Both the position numbers and the translations under genes were made by a program. This document shows positions 4,755 to 21,566 of a stretch of DNA of 32,000 bases, piece by piece. The number at the start of each line of letters is the position of its first letter. The first letter of the stretch is position 1. The notes below the pieces were generated by a model, which searched no databases, was not told where the DNA came from, and saw only the letters and a list, made by a program, of their open reading frames with translations. Source of the stretch: Candidatus Tenderia sp. (GTDB taxonomy: Bacteria; Pseudomonadota; Gammaproteobacteria; Tenderiales; Tenderiaceae); NCBI GenBank assembly GCA_031416075.1, contig JANOSY010000017.1, forward strand, positions 121,691-153,690, given 5' to 3'.

Positions 4755-4823
4755 TCAACAGGGCTACCATGTAAATCACAACCTCCCCAAACAAAGTAGA
4801 CCCAGCCGTATGTAGCCAAGTAA

Positions 4824-4952
4824 GGTGCATTCCATGCACCATCACCACAACCAGTGATTATGTGTTTCATGTTTGATACACAATCAAAAAAGTGCGCTGA
4901 CAAATTATCGGTGTCTAATGGGTAATTTAAAAAATGGTGCATGGAATGCACC
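4824..4952. repeat. Inverted pair of a 19-nt hairpin repeat (GGTGCATTCCATGCACCAT), REP/MITE-like
   Basis: 4824-4842 reads GGTGCATTCCATGCACCAT and 4934-4952 is its exact reverse complement. Each copy is itself a 7-bp stem with a 3-nt loop (GGTGCAT-TCC-ATGCACC). The flanks (gccaagtaa / ttagtaggc-type) extend the similarity imperfectly. Confidence 0.8.
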
Positions 4953-4991
4953 CTACTAAGCCGGATTCAACAAACACGCTGTCAGTCCCTC

Positions 4992-8799: not shown

Positions 8800-8822
8800 T
8801 TAAATGGTGATTAATACTTTCT

Positions 8823-8913
8823 CCGTTCGTGGTGAGCCTGTCGAACCATGGACGGAGGATTTATCATCAGCAACAATTAACATCACCAGCCCTTCGACAG
8901 GCTCAGGGCGAAG
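8823..8913. repeat. Hairpin repeat element A1: two inverted copies of the core TGAGCCTGTCGAA separated by ~47 nt
   Basis: Core at 8833-8845 (+) and 8893-8905 (reverse complement). The element as a whole resembles 17652-17727. It lies in the urtA-urtB spacer. Confidence 0.8.
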
Positions 8914-8977
8914 AACCTGCCTACTTTCCAGAAAGCTGTTTAACCATGTTGCTGAAGAGGTTCGCAAAACAACTTTC

Positions 8978-10582
8978 ATGAGTATACAAATGCAGATTTC
9001 AAAAATAGTTATCACTGGTCTCATGGCGGGGTGGTTGTTGCTAAGCAGCACCGCACACGCCCTGTCACCTGAAAGCATTACATCACTGACCACGGGCGAC
9101 AATGAGCAGCGTATCGACGCCATCACCAGTGTGGTGAACAGTGGTGATAGCAGCGCCATTGCATTCTTGAAAAACATCCTTAATGACGAGGTCAAACTCG
9201 CCGATGGCAAGATTCTAATCGTCAGCGACAGTGGCGCGGTGGATGCCATCACCGGCCAGGCGGTTGCGCTGCCAGAATATCCGGAAGATCTTATCAACAA
9301 CAACCGTGTGCGTAACGAACTGGATGTCGCTATTGCAGCGCTGAGCCTGCGCTCCAGCGATGATGCCGTGCGGCTGGCGGCGGCTAAAAAATTGCAGCAG
9401 ACCACAACATCGGAGTCGATGTTGCCGCTGGTGCGGCAGGCAGAGAAAAATGAACAGAGTGCAAAGATTCGCACCCTGCTGGTGGAGATTCGCGCCGGCA
9501 TTGAACTCTACAGCAGTGACAAACAGTTACGCCTGGATGCCGCCCATGAACTGGCAGACAGCGCCAGCGCCCAGATTAGGCAGTCACTCACCAGCCGACT
9601 CGAGGCGGATGGCGAGTCCGACCCGCAGGTACGCAAGGCGATTGAGGTTGCCATTCACTCCATCGAACAGCGCCTTGGTTATTATGAGTTTGCCGGAACG
9701 GTTTTTACCGGACTCAGCCTCGGCAGCGTACTGCTGTTGGCAGCGCTCGGCCTGGCGATCACCTACGGCCTGATGGGTGTCATCAACATGGCCCACGGCG
9801 AGATGATGATGCTGGGGGCCTATGCAACCTATATTGTGCAAAATCTGTTTCGCCAATATCTGCCGGAGTGGTTTGATGCCTATGTGCTGGCGGCGATCCC
9901 TGCCGCCTTTATTGTGACCGCGCTGATCGGCGTGGTGATGGAGCGCACGGTGATTCGCCACCTCTATGGCCGACCGCTGGAGACACTGCTGGCCACCTGG
10001 GGCATCAGCCTGATTTTGATGCAGCTGGTGCGCACGCTCTTTGGCGCGCAAAACGTGCAGGTGGAAAATCCCAACTGGATGTCGGGCGGCATCGAACTCT
10101 CATCCAATCTGGTGCTGCCCTACAACCGCATCGACATCATCATCTTCTCCGTTGCCGTGCTGCTGCTCATCTGGCTGCTGCTCAACAAGACCCGCCTCGG
10201 CCTGTTTGTGCGCGCCGTGACACAAAACCGCACCATGGCCGGTTGTGTCGGTGTTAATACCGCGCGTGTCGATACCTGGGCCTTTGCGTTGGGTTCTGGT
10301 GTTGCCGGATTGGCCGGTGTGGCGCTGGCGCAGATCGGTAACGTTGGCCCTGATCTCGGCAAGACCTACATCGTTGACTCTTTTATGGTGGTGGTATTGG
10401 GCGGTGTCGGCCAGCTGGCCGGGACGGTCTACGCCGCCCTGGGCATGGGTGTTGTCAGTAAATTTCTGGAGAGTTTTTCCGGCGCGGTGCTGGCCAAGAT
10501 CATCGTGCTGGTCATTGTTATTATTTTCATTCAGAAACGGCCTCAAGGCATCTTTGCCCTGAAGGGCCGTTCAGTGGAGTGA
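8978..10582 (+). CDS. urtB: Urea ABC transporter permease UrtB, with a ~230-aa N-terminal periplasmic helical-repeat extension
   Basis: LivH-type permease core (AITYGLMGVINMAHGEMMMLGAY...). I placed the start at ATG 8978 (MSIQMQISKIVITGLMAGWLLLSSTAHA, signal-like). The longer ORF from 8804 merely reads through repeat element A1. Confidence 0.85.
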   Translation: MSIQMQISKIVITGLMAGWLLLSSTAHALSPESITSLTTGDNEQRIDAITSVVNSGDSSAIAFLKNILNDEVKLADGKILIVSDSGAVDAITGQAVALPEYPEDLINNNRVRNELDVAIAALSLRSSDDAVRLAAAKKLQQTTTSESMLPLVRQAEKNEQSAKIRTLLVEIRAGIELYSSDKQLRLDAAHELADSASAQIRQSLTSRLEADGESDPQVRKAIEVAIHSIEQRLGYYEFAGTVFTGLSLGSVLLLAALGLAITYGLMGVINMAHGEMMMLGAYATYIVQNLFRQYLPEWFDAYVLAAIPAAFIVTALIGVVMERTVIRHLYGRPLETLLATWGISLILMQLVRTLFGAQNVQVENPNWMSGGIELSSNLVLPYNRIDIIIFSVAVLLLIWLLLNKTRLGLFVRAVTQNRTMAGCVGVNTARVDTWAFALGSGVAGLAGVALAQIGNVGPDLGKTYIVDSFMVVVLGGVGQLAGTVYAALGMGVVSKFLESFSGAVLAKIIVLVIVIIFIQKRPQGIFALKGRSVE

Positions 10583-14080: not shown

Positions 14081-14087
14081 GGAACCA

Positions 14088-14143
14088 CTGATTAATTCCT
14101 CCGCTCATGGTTCGACAAGCTCACCACGAGCGGAATTAATCAG
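14088..14143. repeat. Hairpin repeat element A3 (single reversed core TGAGCtTGTCGAA inside its own 16-19-bp inverted arms)
   Basis: CTGATTAATTCCTCCGCTC ... GAGCGGAATTAATCAG arms, with the core (one mismatch) at 14111-14123 on the reverse strand. It lies in the ureD-ureA spacer. Confidence 0.75.
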
Positions 14144-14184
14144 TGACACCGCAACTCTAATGCATGAATTAAGGACTAACACCG

Positions 14185-14803: not shown

Positions 14804-14858
14804 AACACCCGAATAACCTGGCGATAGAATAAACCTGTGTGTGAGAAAAATATCAGAC

Positions 14859-15350
14859 ATGAAATTTGAAATTGACATCGCAGACCTTTTAAAAATTGAT
14901 GATATCGAGCTATCAGAACTTCTGACACAGGTCTATGTCGCTGGTGGATTCATGGAGCCTGACGAGGCGATTACGCTTTTAGAACCGTCCGCTGTCAGAA
15001 AACGTGGGATGGTAATCGGTGCTCGTGAAACGAAACATCATAAATTGGCTGGTATTGTTATTGTTGTTCCGCCAGATTCGCCGGCCCGACGCATGGCAAA
15101 AAACAGTGAGGCGGAAATGCATCTATTAGGGGTCAAGCCAGAATACAGAGGACATGGTCTCGGTCGAATGCTTATTGAAGCAGTCATTGATAAGGTTAAA
15201 CAGAACAACTTCTCAAAGATTATTTTGTGGACGCAGTTTTCCATGACATCCGCCCAGAAGTTATATGAGGCAGCGGGATTCACTCATATAGATGACATGC
15301 AGAGAAATGGCCGTAGCTTCAAAGTTTATGAGCTGGTGCTTGGTGGCTAA
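14859..15350 (+). CDS. GNAT-family N-acetyltransferase inserted between ureB and ureC
   Basis: GNAT motif A (LLGVKPEYRGHGLGRMLIEAVI) and a motif B region (AQKLYEAAGF). The gene is AT-rich relative to its neighbours. The start could be GTG 14841 or ATG 14859. Confidence 0.75.
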   Translation: MKFEIDIADLLKIDDIELSELLTQVYVAGGFMEPDEAITLLEPSAVRKRGMVIGARETKHHKLAGIVIVVPPDSPARRMAKNSEAEMHLLGVKPEYRGHGLGRMLIEAVIDKVKQNNFSKIILWTQFSMTSAQKLYEAAGFTHIDDMQRNGRSFKVYELVLGG

Positions 15351-15452: not shown

Positions 15453-17155
<1,703 letters not shown>

Positions 17156-17156
<1 letters not shown>

Positions 17157-17617
17157 TGTTGCCGCTGATGTTACAGATCACAGAACGTTTAACCTCTGGC
17201 GAGCAGCATGACGACCGACTGATACTGCCGTTTGACCGACGCCAGAAGAGCCGCTTGCGGGTTACGCTGGAGTCTGGCACCGAGGCCGGGCTGTTCCTGG
17301 CGCGTGGCACCCTGTTACGCGGCGGTGACCGGTTGCGCGGCGACGACGGCCGCATCGTGCTGATCGTAGCCGCAGACGAACCTGTGATGCGTATCACTGC
17401 CACAACCACACACCAGCTGATGTGTGCTACCTACCACCTCGGCAATCGCCATGTCCCGCTCCAGATTGGCGAGGGGTGGCTGATACTCGAACAGGACCAC
17501 GTCCTGCAAGAGATGTTGTTAGGGCTAGGTGTGACGGTCACCTATCAAAACGCGCCTTTTGAACCCGAGGCAGGTGCCTATGGCGGCGGACATCGTCATC
17601 ATCAGGATGGCGATTAA
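17156..17617 (+). CDS. ureE: Urease accessory (nickel chaperone) protein UreE
   Basis: Its ATG overlaps the ureC stop (TGATG). UreE-like core (YHLGNRHVPLQI) and a His-rich tail (GGGHRHHQDGD). Confidence 0.85.
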
Positions 17618-17651
17618 AAATCCGCACCCAAAGCACCATGTGGAGCAGGTT

Positions 17652-17727
17652 TTTCGTGGCGAAATTGTCGAACCATAGACGGAGGACGATTAACGTCACC
17701 AGCCCTTCGACAGGCTCAGGGCGAGCG
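17652..17727. repeat. Hairpin repeat element A2 (same family as 8823-8913)
   Basis: TTCGTGGCGAAATTGTCGAACCATAGACGGAGGA...TTAACGTCACCAGCCCTTCGACAGGCTCAGGGCGA is collinear with A1. The right core is perfect at 17706-17718 and the left core is degenerate. Confidence 0.8.
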
Positions 17728-17729
17728 GA

Positions 17730-17942
17730 GGATTTATTCAGAGGTTCGTTAAAAATTATTTATGCGGCTGTCATCATGATCAAAGGACAGCTAAAGATCG
17801 AGCCGTGCGGTTGCCATCTTCATGATCAAGGAACGATTAAAAATCCAATCGTGCAGTGGCCATCGTTGTTATCAGGAGACGGACAAAAATCATCATCAAG
17901 AGAATGTTAAAAGCTGTCATTATCAGAAGGCACCCAATAATC
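17730..17942. repeat. Array of about six degenerate copies of a ~24-nt motif (approx. TCATGATCAAGGAACGATTAAAAAT)
   Basis: Copies at about 17737, 17774-17798, 17820-17844, 17865-17889, 17890-17912 and 17916-17941. The first two full copies share TCATGATCAA exactly. Spacing is irregular (20-46 nt). Confidence 0.55.
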
Positions 17943-17997
17943 CGTTCGTCCTGAGCCTGTCGAAGGATGAACGGATTAACTAAAAAGGATAAACAAA

Positions 17998-18363
17998 ATG
18001 TTTTGGGTCTACATTCTCCGCTGTGCCGACGGCAGCTATTACACAGGGCACACCGACAATCTTGAAAGACGAATGGGACAATACCTGGCCGGAGAGTGTG
18101 AGGGCTATGTCTCAACACGTCGTCCAGTGGAACTTGCCTGGTCGCAGGAGTGTGTCACCAGAGAAGAGGCCTTAACCGCTGAGATGCAGATCAAAGGATG
18201 GAGCCGTAAGAAAAAAGAGGCCATGATGCGCAGCGACTGGACGGAAGTTTCTCATTTAGCAAAAAGTAAATCGTCCATCCTTCGACAGGCTCAGGACGAA
18301 CGGCCTGCCTCACGTAGTGCTTTGGGTACGGATTTAACTCTGCTGCGGAGTAATAAAAGTTGA
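17998..18363 (+). CDS. Small GIY-YIG (URI-domain) nuclease family protein
   Basis: FWVYILRCADGSYYTGHTDNLERRMGQY (GIY ... YxG ... R) and a downstream REEALTAEMQIKGWSRKKK match the stand-alone GIY-YIG / UPF0213 pattern. AAGGA RBS. The C-terminal ~30 aa (SILRQAQDERP...) are a read-through of the right-hand repeats. Confidence 0.8.
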   Translation: MFWVYILRCADGSYYTGHTDNLERRMGQYLAGECEGYVSTRRPVELAWSQECVTREEALTAEMQIKGWSRKKKEAMMRSDWTEVSHLAKSKSSILRQAQDERPASRSALGTDLTLLRSNKS

Positions 18364-18430
18364 TTAGCCACTATTTTCATATTGCATCTCAATGCAGATG
18401 CCCTGCATCCACAATTACGGTCGCACCATC

Positions 18431-19132
18431 ATGATTGATTCACTCGCACTCGCCCGACTGTTACAACTGGCCAGCCCGATGTTGCCGGTGGGCGCCTACA
18501 GCTACTCCCAAGGTTTGGAGTGGGCCATTGAAGAGGGCACGGTGTACGACGCCGCCACTGCCGAGCAGTGGATCGGTGATGTGCTCGAATTTTCACTCGG
18601 CAGCTTTGAACTGCCGTTGCTGTGGCGCATGTGTCACGCCTGGCAGTTGCAGGATCAACAACAGATCAACCACTGGAACGATTTTTTCTGTGCCGGACGC
18701 GAGACCGCCGAGTCCCATGCCGAAACATTGCAGATGGGTTATTCACTGCGGCGGCTGCTCAATTCACTAGAGTCGTTGGAATCCATTGGTGAAGGGCAAA
18801 CATCACCACTGCAACAGCTGCAAGAGATCTCGCCAATCAGCTTCCCCACCGCCTACGCCTGCGCCGTGGCCAGTTGGAAAATCCCGATTGACGCAGCGCT
18901 GCAAGCCTACGCCTGGTCGTGGCTCGAAAATCAGATCAGCGCCGCTATAAAAACTATTCCGCTGGGGCAAACCGATGGTCAGCGCACCCTATTTGCATTG
19001 GCAGGACGCCTGCCGCAATTGATAACACACGCCTGCATACTTGAAGACGATGAGATCAGCAACTTCGCTCCCGGCCTCACCTTTGCCGGATGCCGCCACG
19101 AGACTCAATACAGCCGTCTATTTAGATCATAG
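18431..19132 (+). CDS. ureF: Urease accessory protein UreF
   Basis: LARLLQLASPMLPVGAYSYSQGLEWAIE is the characteristic UreF N-terminus. ATG 18431 is preferred over 18392. Confidence 0.88.
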   Translation: MIDSLALARLLQLASPMLPVGAYSYSQGLEWAIEEGTVYDAATAEQWIGDVLEFSLGSFELPLLWRMCHAWQLQDQQQINHWNDFFCAGRETAESHAETLQMGYSLRRLLNSLESLESIGEGQTSPLQQLQEISPISFPTAYACAVASWKIPIDAALQAYAWSWLENQISAAIKTIPLGQTDGQRTLFALAGRLPQLITHACILEDDEISNFAPGLTFAGCRHETQYSRLFRS

Positions 19133-21314: not shown

Positions 21315-21566
21315 TCAAACATCCCACTTTTTTAGGTGGCAATCTGGAATATATACTCGGCTCTCGCATGAATGACAAAAAAAACTTAGCCGCGCATAAA
21401 ACACCGACACATCAACGGGGCATGTATTTAATTCTGGTGTTTTTGTCTGGTCTCTTACTTCAATGTCGCCGAATCGTGAAACACCAACAATCCAAAACCT
21501 TCCTTTCTCAACCTTGATCACACTGCTCACCGCAGAAATCGCCACTTCACCCACAACAGTGCTCAT
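21315..21566 (-). CDS. Small hypothetical protein (83 aa) with a Cys/His cluster, translationally coupled to amgK
   Basis: Its ATG overlaps the amgK stop (ATGA at 21563-21566). C-terminal CPVD...CHSC...CH may bind zinc. 43 nt upstream of the 229-aa gene. Confidence 0.45.
   Translation of the reverse strand: MSTVVGEVAISAVSSVIKVEKGRFWIVGVSRFGDIEVRDQTKTPELNTCPVDVSVFYARLSFFCHSCESRVYIPDCHLKKWDV

What the first reader, a model, noticed from the sequence alone, without database searches (positions are those of the whole stretch)
17618..18335. GIY-YIG nuclease cassette with nested terminal inverted repeats, inserted precisely between ureE and ureF
**What the sequence shows**
- The space between the ureE stop (17615-17617) and ureF is filled by a discrete 718-bp unit.
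- Its outermost 19 nt (17618-17636, AAATCCGCACCCAAAGCAC) recur inverted at 18317-18335 with one mismatch.
- Both ends abut TTAA, which could be a palindromic target-site duplication or part of the repeat.

**Internal structure**
- A second, 28-nt perfect inverted repeat (17942-17974 and 18272-18303) tightly brackets a 90-aa-core GIY-YIG nuclease ORF. Each copy is itself a hairpin around TGAGCCTGTCGAA.
- The left arm also carries a hairpin element of the A family and an array of short degenerate motifs.

**Why it matters**
- There is no transposase, integrase or homing-endonuclease DNA-binding domain. If this unit moves, the small GIY-YIG protein together with structured DNA ends would be the only machinery.
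- To my knowledge that is not a characterised transposition system.
- The insertion leaves both urease accessory genes intact.
Basis: partly seen in the sequence, partly recalled or inferred. Interest (0 to 1): 0.72.

Follow-up and report, generated by a model that had tools for sequence, protein, structure and literature searches.

The report
Small nuclease gene nested in hairpin repeats
The DNA wedged between two urease genes is a small nuclease gene surrounded by copies of a hairpin-forming repeat that is scattered through the genome; this resembles the recently described Ssn nuclease/repeat systems but involves a different nuclease branch and a different hairpin.

Summary
The repeats and the ORF are real. 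The ORF (17998-18363) encodes a 92-aa single-domain GIY-YIG nuclease with its catalytic residues intact, under purifying selection.

The "718-bp cassette with nested terminal repeats" is not a discrete unit.
- The inner repeats are two copies of a 41-nt hairpin element (CCGTTCG, a 3-bp covarying stem, TGAGCYTGTCGAA, and the return arm). This element also occurs elsewhere in the window without any nuclease gene.
- The outer 19-nt repeat belongs to a 28-nt module sitting inside the arm of variant copies of the same hairpin.
- The insertion runs from about 17615 to about 18396, inside the 3' end of ureE, and a relic of the ureE tail survives at 18397-18438.

Across 80 relatives from different species, 50 have the hairpin on both flanks of the gene and 67 on at least one, a 30-fold local enrichment. 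Single hairpin elements are present or absent between near-identical relatives.

The closest known system is the Ssn family of site-specific ssDNA nucleases with NTS/SRM repeats (Chenal 2025). Here the published SRM motif does not match, and the protein scores closer to UPF0213 than to SsnA.

Verdict: a new variant of a known kind. ssDNA cleavage and mobility are inferred, not shown.

The parts
17153..17617 (+). ureE, truncated at its 3' end by the insertion. The stop codon TAA (17615-17617) is supplied by the inserted DNA.
   Evidence: Pfam UreE_N and UreE_C. Relatives L014 and L015 have longer C-terminal tails that overlap ureF.
17618..17686 (+). Outermost left repeat: a degenerate 'long-arm' hairpin copy. 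It consists of AAATCCG, a 28-nt module (17625-17651), and a decayed hairpin (17649-17686).
   Evidence: 64-nt, 73% inverted repeat with 18272-18335. In register with the 8822-8856 copy (D2). Module also in L022. Does not fold significantly.
17696..17766 (-). Short-stem hairpin copy (loop 17706-17718) with a tail-like 3' flank. Together with the previous part it forms a GIY-less double-hairpin element like 8813-8930.
   Evidence: 95% identical to 8873-8911 (D1). 17704-17757 matches the hairpin plus tail of L001.
17759..17954 (+). Four degenerate units of about 46 nt that resemble the ureE 3' end plus the junction with the repeat (..CATCATCAGGAnGGCGATTAAAAATCC). The last unit runs into the upstream hairpin.
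   Evidence: (D1, D2, D8). Unit 2 scores 36 against a shuffle maximum of 23. This stretch is absent from L022. TRF finds nothing.
17938..17978 (+). Upstream hairpin element of the nuclease unit (loop TGAGCCTGTCGAA, 17952-17964).
   Evidence: z = -7.2. Homologous unit begins here in L001, L002 and L006.
17998..18363 (+). GIY-YIG nuclease ORF. The conserved core is 17998-18273 (92 aa). Codons after the core are read-through of the downstream hairpin and repeat.
   Evidence: Pfam 3.4e-19. Y5, Y15, R25 and E62 conserved. dN/dS 0.04-0.11. AF2 pLDDT 88.5, best fold matches UPF0213 1zg2 and 1ywl, then UvrC and Slx1.
18267..18335 (-). Downstream hairpin element (loop 18281-18293), interrupted in its outer arm by the 28-nt module 18304-18331.
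   Evidence: 28-nt insert relative to four other loci. The loop starts 9 nt after the core in about 30 of 80 relatives.
18336..18390 (+). Tail that travels with the unit. It is homologous to the sequence after the downstream hairpin in Nitrotoga copies.
   Evidence: 18328-18382 vs L002 6304-6359; two paralogous copies in one genome share hairpin-gene-hairpin plus a ~70-nt tail, 422 nt at 92%.
18397..18438 (+). Relic of the ancestral ureE 3' end (DALHPQLRSHHHD*). Its TGA overlaps the ureF ATG by 8 nt, as in relative L014.
18431..19132 (+). ureF (probable start ATG at 18431).
   Evidence: Pfam UreF 9.8e-44. Start aligned with L014 and L015.
8813..8930 (.). Dispersed GIY-less double-hairpin element of the same family. 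Hairpin (+) is at 8822-8856 and the short-stem copy (-) at 8885-8912.
14082..14155 (-). Dispersed single hairpin element between ureD and ureA (hairpin 14093-14134). It is absent from a ~98% identical relative.
   Evidence: 74-nt gap in L013; z = -6.4.

Best explanation
This is a nuclease/repeat system of the Ssn type. A 92-aa single-domain GIY-YIG nuclease gene sits inside a cluster of its presumed cognate repeat.

**The repeat.** It is a 41-nt element that folds as a single-stranded hairpin. It has a sequence-conserved 5' arm (CCGTTCG), a covarying 3-bp stem top, an invariant 13-nt loop (TGAGCYTGTCGAA), and a return arm.

**The conserved unit.** It is hairpin, gene, inverted hairpin, and a tail of about 55-70 nt, roughly 420 bp in all. 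In this lineage it landed in the 3' end of ureE. That spot has since accumulated further hairpin copies and duplications of the junction.

**Inferred mechanism.** The nuclease binds the folded hairpin on the TGAGC strand when the DNA is single-stranded (replication, transformation, repair) and nicks nearby, as SsnA does at NTS. The resulting breaks, repaired by the host, would drive gain, loss and spread of the hairpins and occasionally of the gene cassette. This would be analogous to REPIN/RAYT.

**Shown versus inferred.** Shown computationally: the anatomy, the gene-repeat association, the hairpin covariation, the indel polymorphism and the insertion into ureE. Inferred only: binding and cutting of ssDNA, dependence of the repeats on the nuclease, and any cellular role.
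For: **Gene-repeat association**
- In 80 loci from different species, the strict hairpin motif lies within 200 nt on both sides of the gene in 50 loci and on at least one side in 67.
- Its density is 4.76/kb next to the gene against 0.157/kb elsewhere in the same loci.
- A relaxed 5'-arm motif is present within 250 nt in 77 of 80 loci.
- The arrangement is the same in Nitrotoga, Methylobacter, a gammaproteobacterium and Sphingomonas, each at a different genomic site.

**Hairpin structure**
- Across 132 distinct copies, the three stem-top pairs show 38, 35 and 23 double compensatory changes. None of 500 shuffles reaches the observed covariation, and slid controls score far lower.
- The 5' arm is about 93% conserved while the return arm decays.
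- G:T outnumbers A:C by 379 to 179 on the TGAGC strand.

**Repeat dynamics**
- A 74-nt element is absent from the ~98% identical contig L013.
- Three further indels separate the window from syntenic L022.

**The insertion**
- ureE and ureF overlap in relatives.
- A relic of the ureE tail lies at 18397-18438.

**The protein**
- The catalytic residues are kept.
- dN/dS is 0.04-0.11.
- The predicted fold is GIY-YIG.

**Precedent**
- SsnA and three homologues cut ssDNA next to their flanking hairpin repeats. They do not cut dsDNA or RNA (PMC11893778).

**Paralogous copies**
- Two copies in one Nitrotoga genome share exactly hairpin-gene-hairpin-tail: 422 nt at 92%.
Against: - No biochemistry exists for this clade.
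- It is not in the SsnA clade by sequence. It has 32% identity and 41 bits to N. meningitidis SsnA.
- A profile of its clade scores Ssn proteins at 38.6 bits, YhbQ proteins at 41.0 bits, and the UPF0213 protein BH0048 at 67.9 bits.
- The published SRM motif finds 0 sites in the window, and only 1 of its 18 sites in the 80 loci lies within 500 nt of the gene. The same search finds 8 NTS in a Neisseria control.
- The cassette here has been stable since the split from L022 (gene dS 0.30). dS against other genomes is saturated, so recent movement of the gene itself is not shown.
- Whole genomes were not available, so genome-wide co-occurrence of nuclease and repeats was not tested.
- A hydrolytic nuclease cannot by itself explain insertion.
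Confidence: 0.62

Rival explanations
1. One reading: a discrete 718-bp transposon (17618-18335) bounded by 19-nt terminal inverted repeats with a TTAA target duplication, mobilised by the GIY-YIG protein acting as a transposase.
For: - The 19-nt inverted repeat is real and non-random.
- Relatives have no ureE-ureF spacer.
- There is no other enzyme in the unit.
Against: - The outer repeat is a 28-nt module inside a variant hairpin arm. It is absent from the units in L001, L002, L006 and L007 and present in an unrelated spacer of L022.
- Homology with other units runs past 18335.
- The ureE relic puts the right junction near 18396.
- L022 has the same insertion with a different left half.
- The AAAT/ATTT flanks covary as stem bases.
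- GIY-YIG enzymes hydrolyse DNA and form no covalent intermediate (established knowledge).
Confidence: 0.05
2. A resident, vertically inherited housekeeping nuclease of the UPF0213/YhbQ/Slx1-like kind (DNA repair). The hairpins would be generic REP-like intergenic repeats that pile up in any available spacer, with no functional link to the gene.
For: - The best sequence and fold matches are UPF0213 proteins.
- Purifying selection is strong and dS is saturated.
- The insertion is shared with L022.
- Hairpins also occur away from the gene.
- NCBI names E. coli YhbQ a DNA damage response exonuclease.
Against: - Hairpins are 23- to 30-fold enriched right next to the gene in species from several classes and phyla.
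- The downstream hairpin loop sits at a fixed +9 nt.
- The gene lies at a different locus in each genus examined and has 2-3 diverged paralogues in some genomes.
- E. coli yhbQ has no such repeats.
- Relatives have ureE/ureF overlapping with no gene between them.
Confidence: 0.15
3. The hairpins act at the RNA level as REP-like terminators, mRNA stabilisers or a riboregulator of the urease operon. The nuclease gene would be incidental, or regulated by them.
For: - The hairpins lie in intergenic spacers of operons.
- Complete copies are stable stem-loops.
- The gene sits co-directionally between co-directional neighbours in 46 of 67 loci.
Against: - There is no Rfam match, even at E = 1.
- The scan found no terminator-like sites (stem-loop followed by a T run) in 17400-18600.
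- Copies occur on both strands. The downstream copy is mostly antisense to the mRNA (57 vs 27), where its G:T pairs become A:C mismatches.
- The loop and the 5' arm are conserved as sequence, which fits a protein site rather than a mere stem.
Confidence: 0.1
4. A free-standing homing endonuclease gene that spreads by cutting cassette-free alleles between genes.
For: - It is a GIY-YIG nuclease inserted between or into conserved genes.
- There is a weak NCBIfam hit to group I intron endonuclease (E = 0.16).
Against: - There is no DNA-binding domain. The protein is 92 aa, against about 250 aa for homing enzymes such as I-TevI (established knowledge).
- There are no PHROG hits.
- The insertion sites are unrelated genes in different genomes.
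- The defining companion is a dispersed repeat, not a single target.
Confidence: 0.04

Closest known systems
Ssn nucleases with NTS/SRM repeats (SsnA, NMB0047/NMV_0044; CDD cd10448 GIY-YIG_unchar_3), Chenal et al. 2025, PMC11893778
   Same: - A single-domain GIY-YIG protein of about 90-95 aa.
- The gene is flanked on both sides by hairpin-forming repeats of 20-50 nt.
- The repeats have an orientation-giving conserved 5' flank.
- The repeats are also dispersed through the genome.
- The layout is IS-like (repeat-gene-repeat).
   Different: - The protein is a different branch: 32% identity to SsnA, and it scores higher against UPF0213 proteins.
- The repeat is different. It has a 13-nt invariant loop and a CCGTTCG arm, where NTS has CGTCAT, an 8-bp stem and a 3-nt loop.
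- The published SRM pattern does not match it.
- ssDNA cleavage is untested here.
UPF0213 / YhbQ / YazA family (bacterial Slx1-like GIY-YIG; PDB 1zg2, 1ywl)
   Same: - Closest by sequence (8e-13 and 7e-11) and by fold.
- Same size and same catalytic residues.
   Different: - E. coli yhbQ is a fixed chromosomal gene with no flanking hairpins.
- The clade here sits at variable loci, has paralogues, and is embedded in repeats.
REP/REPIN elements and RAYT (IS200/IS605-like Y1 transposases)
   Same: - One nuclease gene flanked by inverted copies of a hairpin repeat.
- Dispersed singlets and inverted doublets of that repeat.
- Clusters like BIMEs.
- Recognition of a hairpin on one DNA strand.
   Different: - The enzyme is a hydrolytic GIY-YIG nuclease, not an HUH/Y1 transposase that forms a covalent intermediate.
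- Cut-and-rejoin chemistry is therefore not available to it.

Membership tests
Ssn family (cd10448) as defined by Chenal et al. 2025 | Single-domain GIY-YIG protein of about 90-150 aa with no extra domain | tested here: met
   92-aa core. Only Pfam GIY-YIG matches, over residues 1-73. The AF2 model is a single domain.
Ssn family (cd10448) as defined by Chenal et al. 2025 | Homology to N. meningitidis SsnA (blastp E < 1e-10 per genome, at least 75% cover), or cd10448 as best CDD model | tested here: not met
   - 41 bits and E = 4e-11 in a two-sequence comparison. By my estimate this would be about 1e-7 or worse against a proteome.
- The Ssn profile scores the window protein at 33.5 bits, against 178 on average for members.
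- The profile of the window's clade scores the UPF0213 protein BH0048 at 67.9 bits.
- CDD rpsblast itself could not be run.
Ssn family (cd10448) as defined by Chenal et al. 2025 | SRM motif HGTCWYN(0-2)YYVSBRHN(0-5)WNVSBRGN(0-2)RNCYNB flanking the gene | tested here: not met
   - 0 hits in the window.
- 0 hits in L001, L002 and L004.
- 8 hits in the N. gonorrhoeae control L003.
- 18 hits in 669 kb of the 80 loci, only 1 of them within 500 nt of the gene.
Ssn family (cd10448) as defined by Chenal et al. 2025 | Gene flanked 5' and 3' by hairpin repeats that are also dispersed in the genome | tested here: met
   (50 of 80 loci on both sides; 30-fold enrichment).
Ssn family (cd10448) as defined by Chenal et al. 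2025 | Site-specific cleavage of ssDNA only, next to the repeat, on one strand | not testable with these tools
   Needs purified protein and oligonucleotides. The only indirect hint is the strand-biased G:T pairing.
UPF0213 / YhbQ (cd10456) | Sequence and fold similarity to BH0048, EF2693 and YhbQ | tested here: met
   - PDB phmmer: 7.9e-13 and 7.2e-11.
- Foldseek top two hits.
- The profile of the window's clade scores BH0048 at 67.9 bits, EF2693 at 59.6 bits and YhbQ proteins at 41.0 bits on average. The YhbQ profile scores the window protein at 34.8 bits.
- Whether cd10456 is the best CDD model was not tested.
Classical insertion sequence / transposon | Transposase, terminal inverted repeats at the true ends, target-site duplication, and identical copies elsewhere | tested here: not met
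   - There is no transposase.
- The ends are asymmetric: a hairpin on one side and a hairpin plus tail on the other.
- No clear duplication was found; a shared GAT at both junctions could be chance.
- Paralogues within one genome are 69-92% identical, not identical.
REP/RAYT (REPtron) | Y1/HUH transposase gene flanked by REPs | tested here: not met
   The protein is GIY-YIG, not Y1/HUH. The layout is analogous only.

The most novel reading that the evidence does not exclude
A previously undescribed REPIN/RAYT-like system. In it, a UPF0213-like (non-cd10448) GIY-YIG nuclease recognises and nicks a 41-nt ssDNA hairpin (CCGTTCG, stem, TGAGCYTGTCGAA, stem). This activity would drive the spread of hundreds of miniature hairpin elements and of its own ~420-bp cassette through Beta- and Gammaproteobacteria and Desulfobacterota.

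If true, it would assign a function to a large orphan branch of small GIY-YIG proteins. It would supply new ssDNA-specific cutters with a new specificity. It would also explain the recurrent spurious peptide motifs (..SLSKDE.., ..LRQAQDER.., ..PSTSSGRT..) produced when these repeats are translated.
Probability: 0.35. Interest if true: 0.7.

Novelty: new variant of a known kind. Interest (0 to 1): 0.55.

Why it matters
- The 2025 Ssn work showed that one branch of tiny GIY-YIG proteins are sequence-specific ssDNA cutters paired with genomic hairpin repeats.
- If the pairing found here works the same way, the principle is not confined to that branch or to the SRM motif. This second clade scores closer to UPF0213/Slx1-like proteins and has its own, differently built hairpin.
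- That widens the pool of candidate ssDNA tools and gives a testable function to an orphan clade.
- The data here add something the Ssn paper only hypothesised. Hairpin elements are gained or lost between near-identical relatives, and the gene cassette sits inside operons at unrelated sites in different genera.
- Practically, the repeats break assemblies and inflate ORF predictions with repeat-derived tails.

Tried and rejected
- **Rfam.** At gathering threshold on the whole window, and at E <= 1 on 17550-18450, nothing matched in the region.
- **Other protein libraries.** PADLOC and PHROGs gave no hit. NCBIfam gave only a sub-threshold group I intron endonuclease hit.
- **TRF.** It found no tandem array at 17500-18500 because the units are too diverged.
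- **Literature search for the repeat.** The repeat sequence and its translated motifs gave no relevant paper. A search for YhbQ gave little.
- **Exact-protein look-ups.**
  - The 121-aa ORF and the 233-aa UreF were not on record.
  - UreA gave one short contig, which happened to be an empty site for the ureD-ureA hairpin.
  - The 246-aa UreF ORF gave only two short contigs identical to the window, which break inside the hairpin.
- **RNA fold of 18262-18440.** Not better than shuffles, z = 0.04.
- **Long-arm hairpin variants.** Folding them gave no significant structure for the 28-nt module.
- **Promoter scan.** It gave no convincing outward promoter in the tail.
- **Supplements of the Ssn paper.** They are not held, so the SsnA sequence was recovered from a Neisseria chromosome mislabelled as a plasmid in PLSDB and then from the protein database.
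- **Are the ~46-nt units decayed half-hairpins?** They match the ureE 3' junction better, 36 and 23 against 12-14.
Full report
**1. The observation**

The sequence features are there.
- The 19-nt AAATCCGCACCCAAAGCAC at 17618-17636 recurs inverted at 18317-18335 with one mismatch. No shuffle gave a match.
- An inner inverted repeat, 17942-17978 / 18267-18303 (37 nt, 92%), brackets an ORF.
- The upstream copy folds on its own as single-stranded DNA (17936-17982: -13.1 kcal/mol, z = -7.2). The downstream copy, folded with its 28-nt insert, is not significant (z = 0.08).
- The ORF 17998-18363 is a GIY-YIG domain protein (Pfam 3.4e-19).
- It lies between ureE (17153-17617) and ureF.

**2. The hairpin is a dispersed repeat, not a private end of a cassette**

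- The loop TGAGCCTGTCGAA occurs 7 times in the 32 kb at up to 2 mismatches, against 0.77 expected. Three copies have no nuclease gene nearby: 8833 (+), 8893 (-) and 14111 (-).
- The left 120 bp of the 'cassette' (17649-17735) is a decayed copy of the double-hairpin element at 8813-8930 (D1 and D2).
- The 'outer TIR' is part of a 28-nt module. The module is inserted between ..TCCG and TTCGT.. in the 5' arm of variant hairpins.
- Compared with four other copies of the nuclease unit, the window's downstream hairpin has exactly this 28-nt insert, at 18304-18331.
- The same module sits in a hairpin in an unrelated spacer of a relative (L022 ~1862-1890).
- The two outermost repeats are therefore two long-arm copies of the same family in inverted orientation.

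**3. Where the insertion really lies**

- In relatives with 71-73% identical UreE (L014, L015), ureE and ureF overlap and there is no spacer.
- In the window, ureF most likely starts at 18431.
- Upstream of it, 18397-18438 reads DALHPQLRSHHHD*. Its TGA overlaps the ureF ATG by the same 8 nt as in L014.
- This is the orphaned 3' end of ureE.
- The insertion therefore spans about 17615 to 18396 and cut off the last ~13 codons of ureE. The present TAA stop comes from the inserted DNA.

**4. A syntenic relative shares the insertion**

- L022 (MAG ND3_Bin_17) carries the same urease operon, with dS of 0.5-0.8 in ureC, ureE and ureF. It has the same ureE|GIY-YIG|ureF arrangement.
- Its left half differs in three ways:
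  - It has a complete extra hairpin right after the ureE stop.
  - It lacks window 17737-17975.
  - It has a double-hairpin element between ureB and the GNAT gene that the window lacks.
- A ~98% identical metagenome contig (L013) lacks the 74-nt hairpin element between ureD and ureA (14082-14155).
- Hairpin elements are thus gained or lost on short time scales. The gene itself has stayed put since the split from L022.
- The four ~46-nt units at 17759-17954 resemble the ureE 3' end plus its junction with the repeat. Unit 2 scores 36 against a shuffle maximum of 23. They match that junction better than they match the hairpin. This suggests repeated duplication at the junction.

**5. The unit in other genomes**

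- The core protein has thousands of relatives.
- In Ca. Nitrotoga arctica and a second Nitrotoga genome it lies between an aminotransferase gene and hom.
- In Methylobacter it lies between hypD and hypE.
- In a gammaproteobacterium it lies between a short ORF that follows sucD and dacB.
- In a Sphingomonas replicon it lies between nrdR and a methyltransferase gene.
- In every one of these cases it is flanked by the same hairpin family.
- A scan of one genome per species gave at least 561 relatives. In the best 80 loci (70-92% identity; Beta- and Gammaproteobacteria, Desulfurivibrionaceae, Geobacter) the results were:
  - The strict hairpin motif lies within 200 nt on both sides in 50 loci and on at least one side in 67.
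  - Density is 4.76/kb near the gene against 0.157/kb elsewhere.
  - A relaxed 5'-arm motif is found in 77 of 80 loci.
  - Loci scored as 'none' carry variants with a long insert between TGAGC and GTCGAA.
- Two paralogues in one Nitrotoga genome share exactly hairpin-gene-hairpin plus a ~70-nt tail (422 nt, 92%).
- The window has the homologous tail at 18336-~18390.
- The gene sits co-directionally between co-directional neighbours in 46 of 67 loci. In 6 of 67 both neighbours are opposite.

**6. The hairpin as a structure**

- In 212 distinct copies, the 5' arm CCGTTCG is about 93% conserved.
- In the loop, ten positions were fixed by the search pattern; of the three left free, two are nearly invariant (C, T) and one is Y.
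- The return arm is much less conserved.
- The three stem-top pairs covary: GTCC/GGAT, GTGG/CCAT, GCCC/GGGY and GTGC/GCAT.
  - They show 38, 35 and 23 double changes in 132 sequences.
  - None of 500 shuffles reaches the observed score, and slid controls are far lower.
- Mismatches are biased to G:T on the TGAGC strand (379 against 179 A:C). A G:T at pair 11-31 is the consensus.
- The downstream copy is mostly antisense to the mRNA (57 against 27).
- There is no Rfam match.
- The scan found no terminator-like sites (stem-loop plus T run) in 17400-18600.
- Together these favour a single-stranded DNA hairpin read by a protein over an RNA element.

**7. The protein**

- The catalytic Y5, Y15, R25 and E62 are conserved.
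- dN/dS is 0.04-0.11.
- The AlphaFold model (pLDDT 88.5) best matches the UPF0213 proteins 1zg2 and 1ywl, then UvrC and Slx1.
- Codons beyond residue ~92 are read-through of the downstream hairpin (ILRQAQDER here, HPSTSSGRT in relatives). This explains the variable lengths of homologues.

**8. Comparison with what is known**

- Chenal et al. 2025 (PMC11893778) showed four things:
  - SsnA, a 94-aa single-domain GIY-YIG protein of family cd10448, binds and cuts ssDNA next to the NTS hairpin repeat.
  - Homologues do the same with their own repeats (SRM).
  - The genes are typically flanked by these repeats.
  - The layout resembles an IS or REP/RAYT.
- The system here works like that on every feature I could check in the sequence, but two defining features fail.
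  - The published SRM pattern finds 8 NTS around the N. gonorrhoeae gene. It finds none in the window and none next to relatives, apart from 1 site in 669 kb.
  - The protein is no closer to Ssn than to YhbQ, and is closest to UPF0213. It has 32% identity and 41 bits to N. meningitidis SsnA. The profile of its clade scores Ssn proteins at 38.6 bits, YhbQ proteins at 41.0 bits and BH0048 at 67.9 bits. The Ssn and YhbQ profiles score each other's members at only 9-16 bits.
- I could not run CDD, so membership of cd10448 against cd10456 remains formally open.
- I file it as a new variant: a different nuclease branch and a different hairpin with the same architecture.

**9. What remains unexplained**

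- The non-coding stretch 18274-18430 differs from L022 at only 2 of 157 positions. Synonymous sites around it are 30-80% diverged.
- It has no significant predicted RNA fold.
- It may be a recent recombination tract or a constrained element that keeps ureF expressed.

**10. Verdict**

- The finding is real but mis-bounded.
- It is best read as an Ssn-like nuclease/hairpin-repeat locus that inserted into the end of ureE.
- ssDNA cleavage and any role in moving the repeats are inferences by analogy.
- Interest is moderate. The kind of system was published in 2025. This clade/hairpin pair, and the evidence for repeat turnover, do not appear in the literature I could search.

Noticed in passing
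window 18274-18430: This non-coding stretch comprises the downstream hairpin, the 28-nt module, the tail and the ureE relic. It is 98.7% identical to the syntenic relative L022 (2 mismatches in 157 nt). Neighbouring genes have dS of 0.3-0.8. It has no significant RNA fold.
   Followed up: partly
window 14082-14155: A 74-nt hairpin element between ureD and ureA is cleanly absent from a ~98% identical metagenome contig (L013). This is a filled/empty pair for a single repeat element.
   Followed up: yes
window 17759-17954: Four degenerate ~46-nt units look like duplications of the ureE 3' end plus its junction with the repeat. They are absent from L022. A comparable array of degenerate repeat units lies upstream of the nuclease unit in L047 (4740-4940).
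   Followed up: partly
window 14841-15350: A GNAT acetyltransferase gene sits between ureB and ureC inside the urease operon. It is also present in L022.
   Followed up: no
window 15606-15891 (-): Rfam 5_ureB_sRNA (RF02514) matches at 120 bits, antisense, inside ureC. This probably reflects conserved urease coding DNA rather than a real sRNA here.
   Followed up: no
L022-L101 (80 loci): Relatives of the nuclease gene sit co-directionally between co-directional neighbours in 46 of 67 loci. In 6 of 67 both neighbours are opposite. This suggests reliance on host read-through transcription, or selection against the other orientation.
   Followed up: partly
window 18274-18363; proteins P0001-P0120: The C-terminal tails of the annotated homologues (89-161 aa) are translations of the downstream hairpin (ILRQAQDER, HPSTSSGRT). 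Such repeats probably seed recurrent spurious peptide motifs in protein databases.
   Followed up: partly
L102, L103 (Logan SRR20217189, SRR20217178): Public contigs 100% identical to the window start inside the hairpin loop at window ~18277. The assemblies break at this repeat.
   Followed up: yes
window 4819-4842 / 4934-4957 and 2703-2738 / 21347-21382: Two other inverted repeat pairs: 24 nt at 96%, 91 nt apart, and 36 nt at 81%, 18.6 kb apart. They are unrelated to the hairpin family.
   Followed up: no
window 8804-10582: The mechanical ORF start at 8804 would run through the double-hairpin element 8813-8930. The true start of this gene is probably downstream.
   Followed up: no
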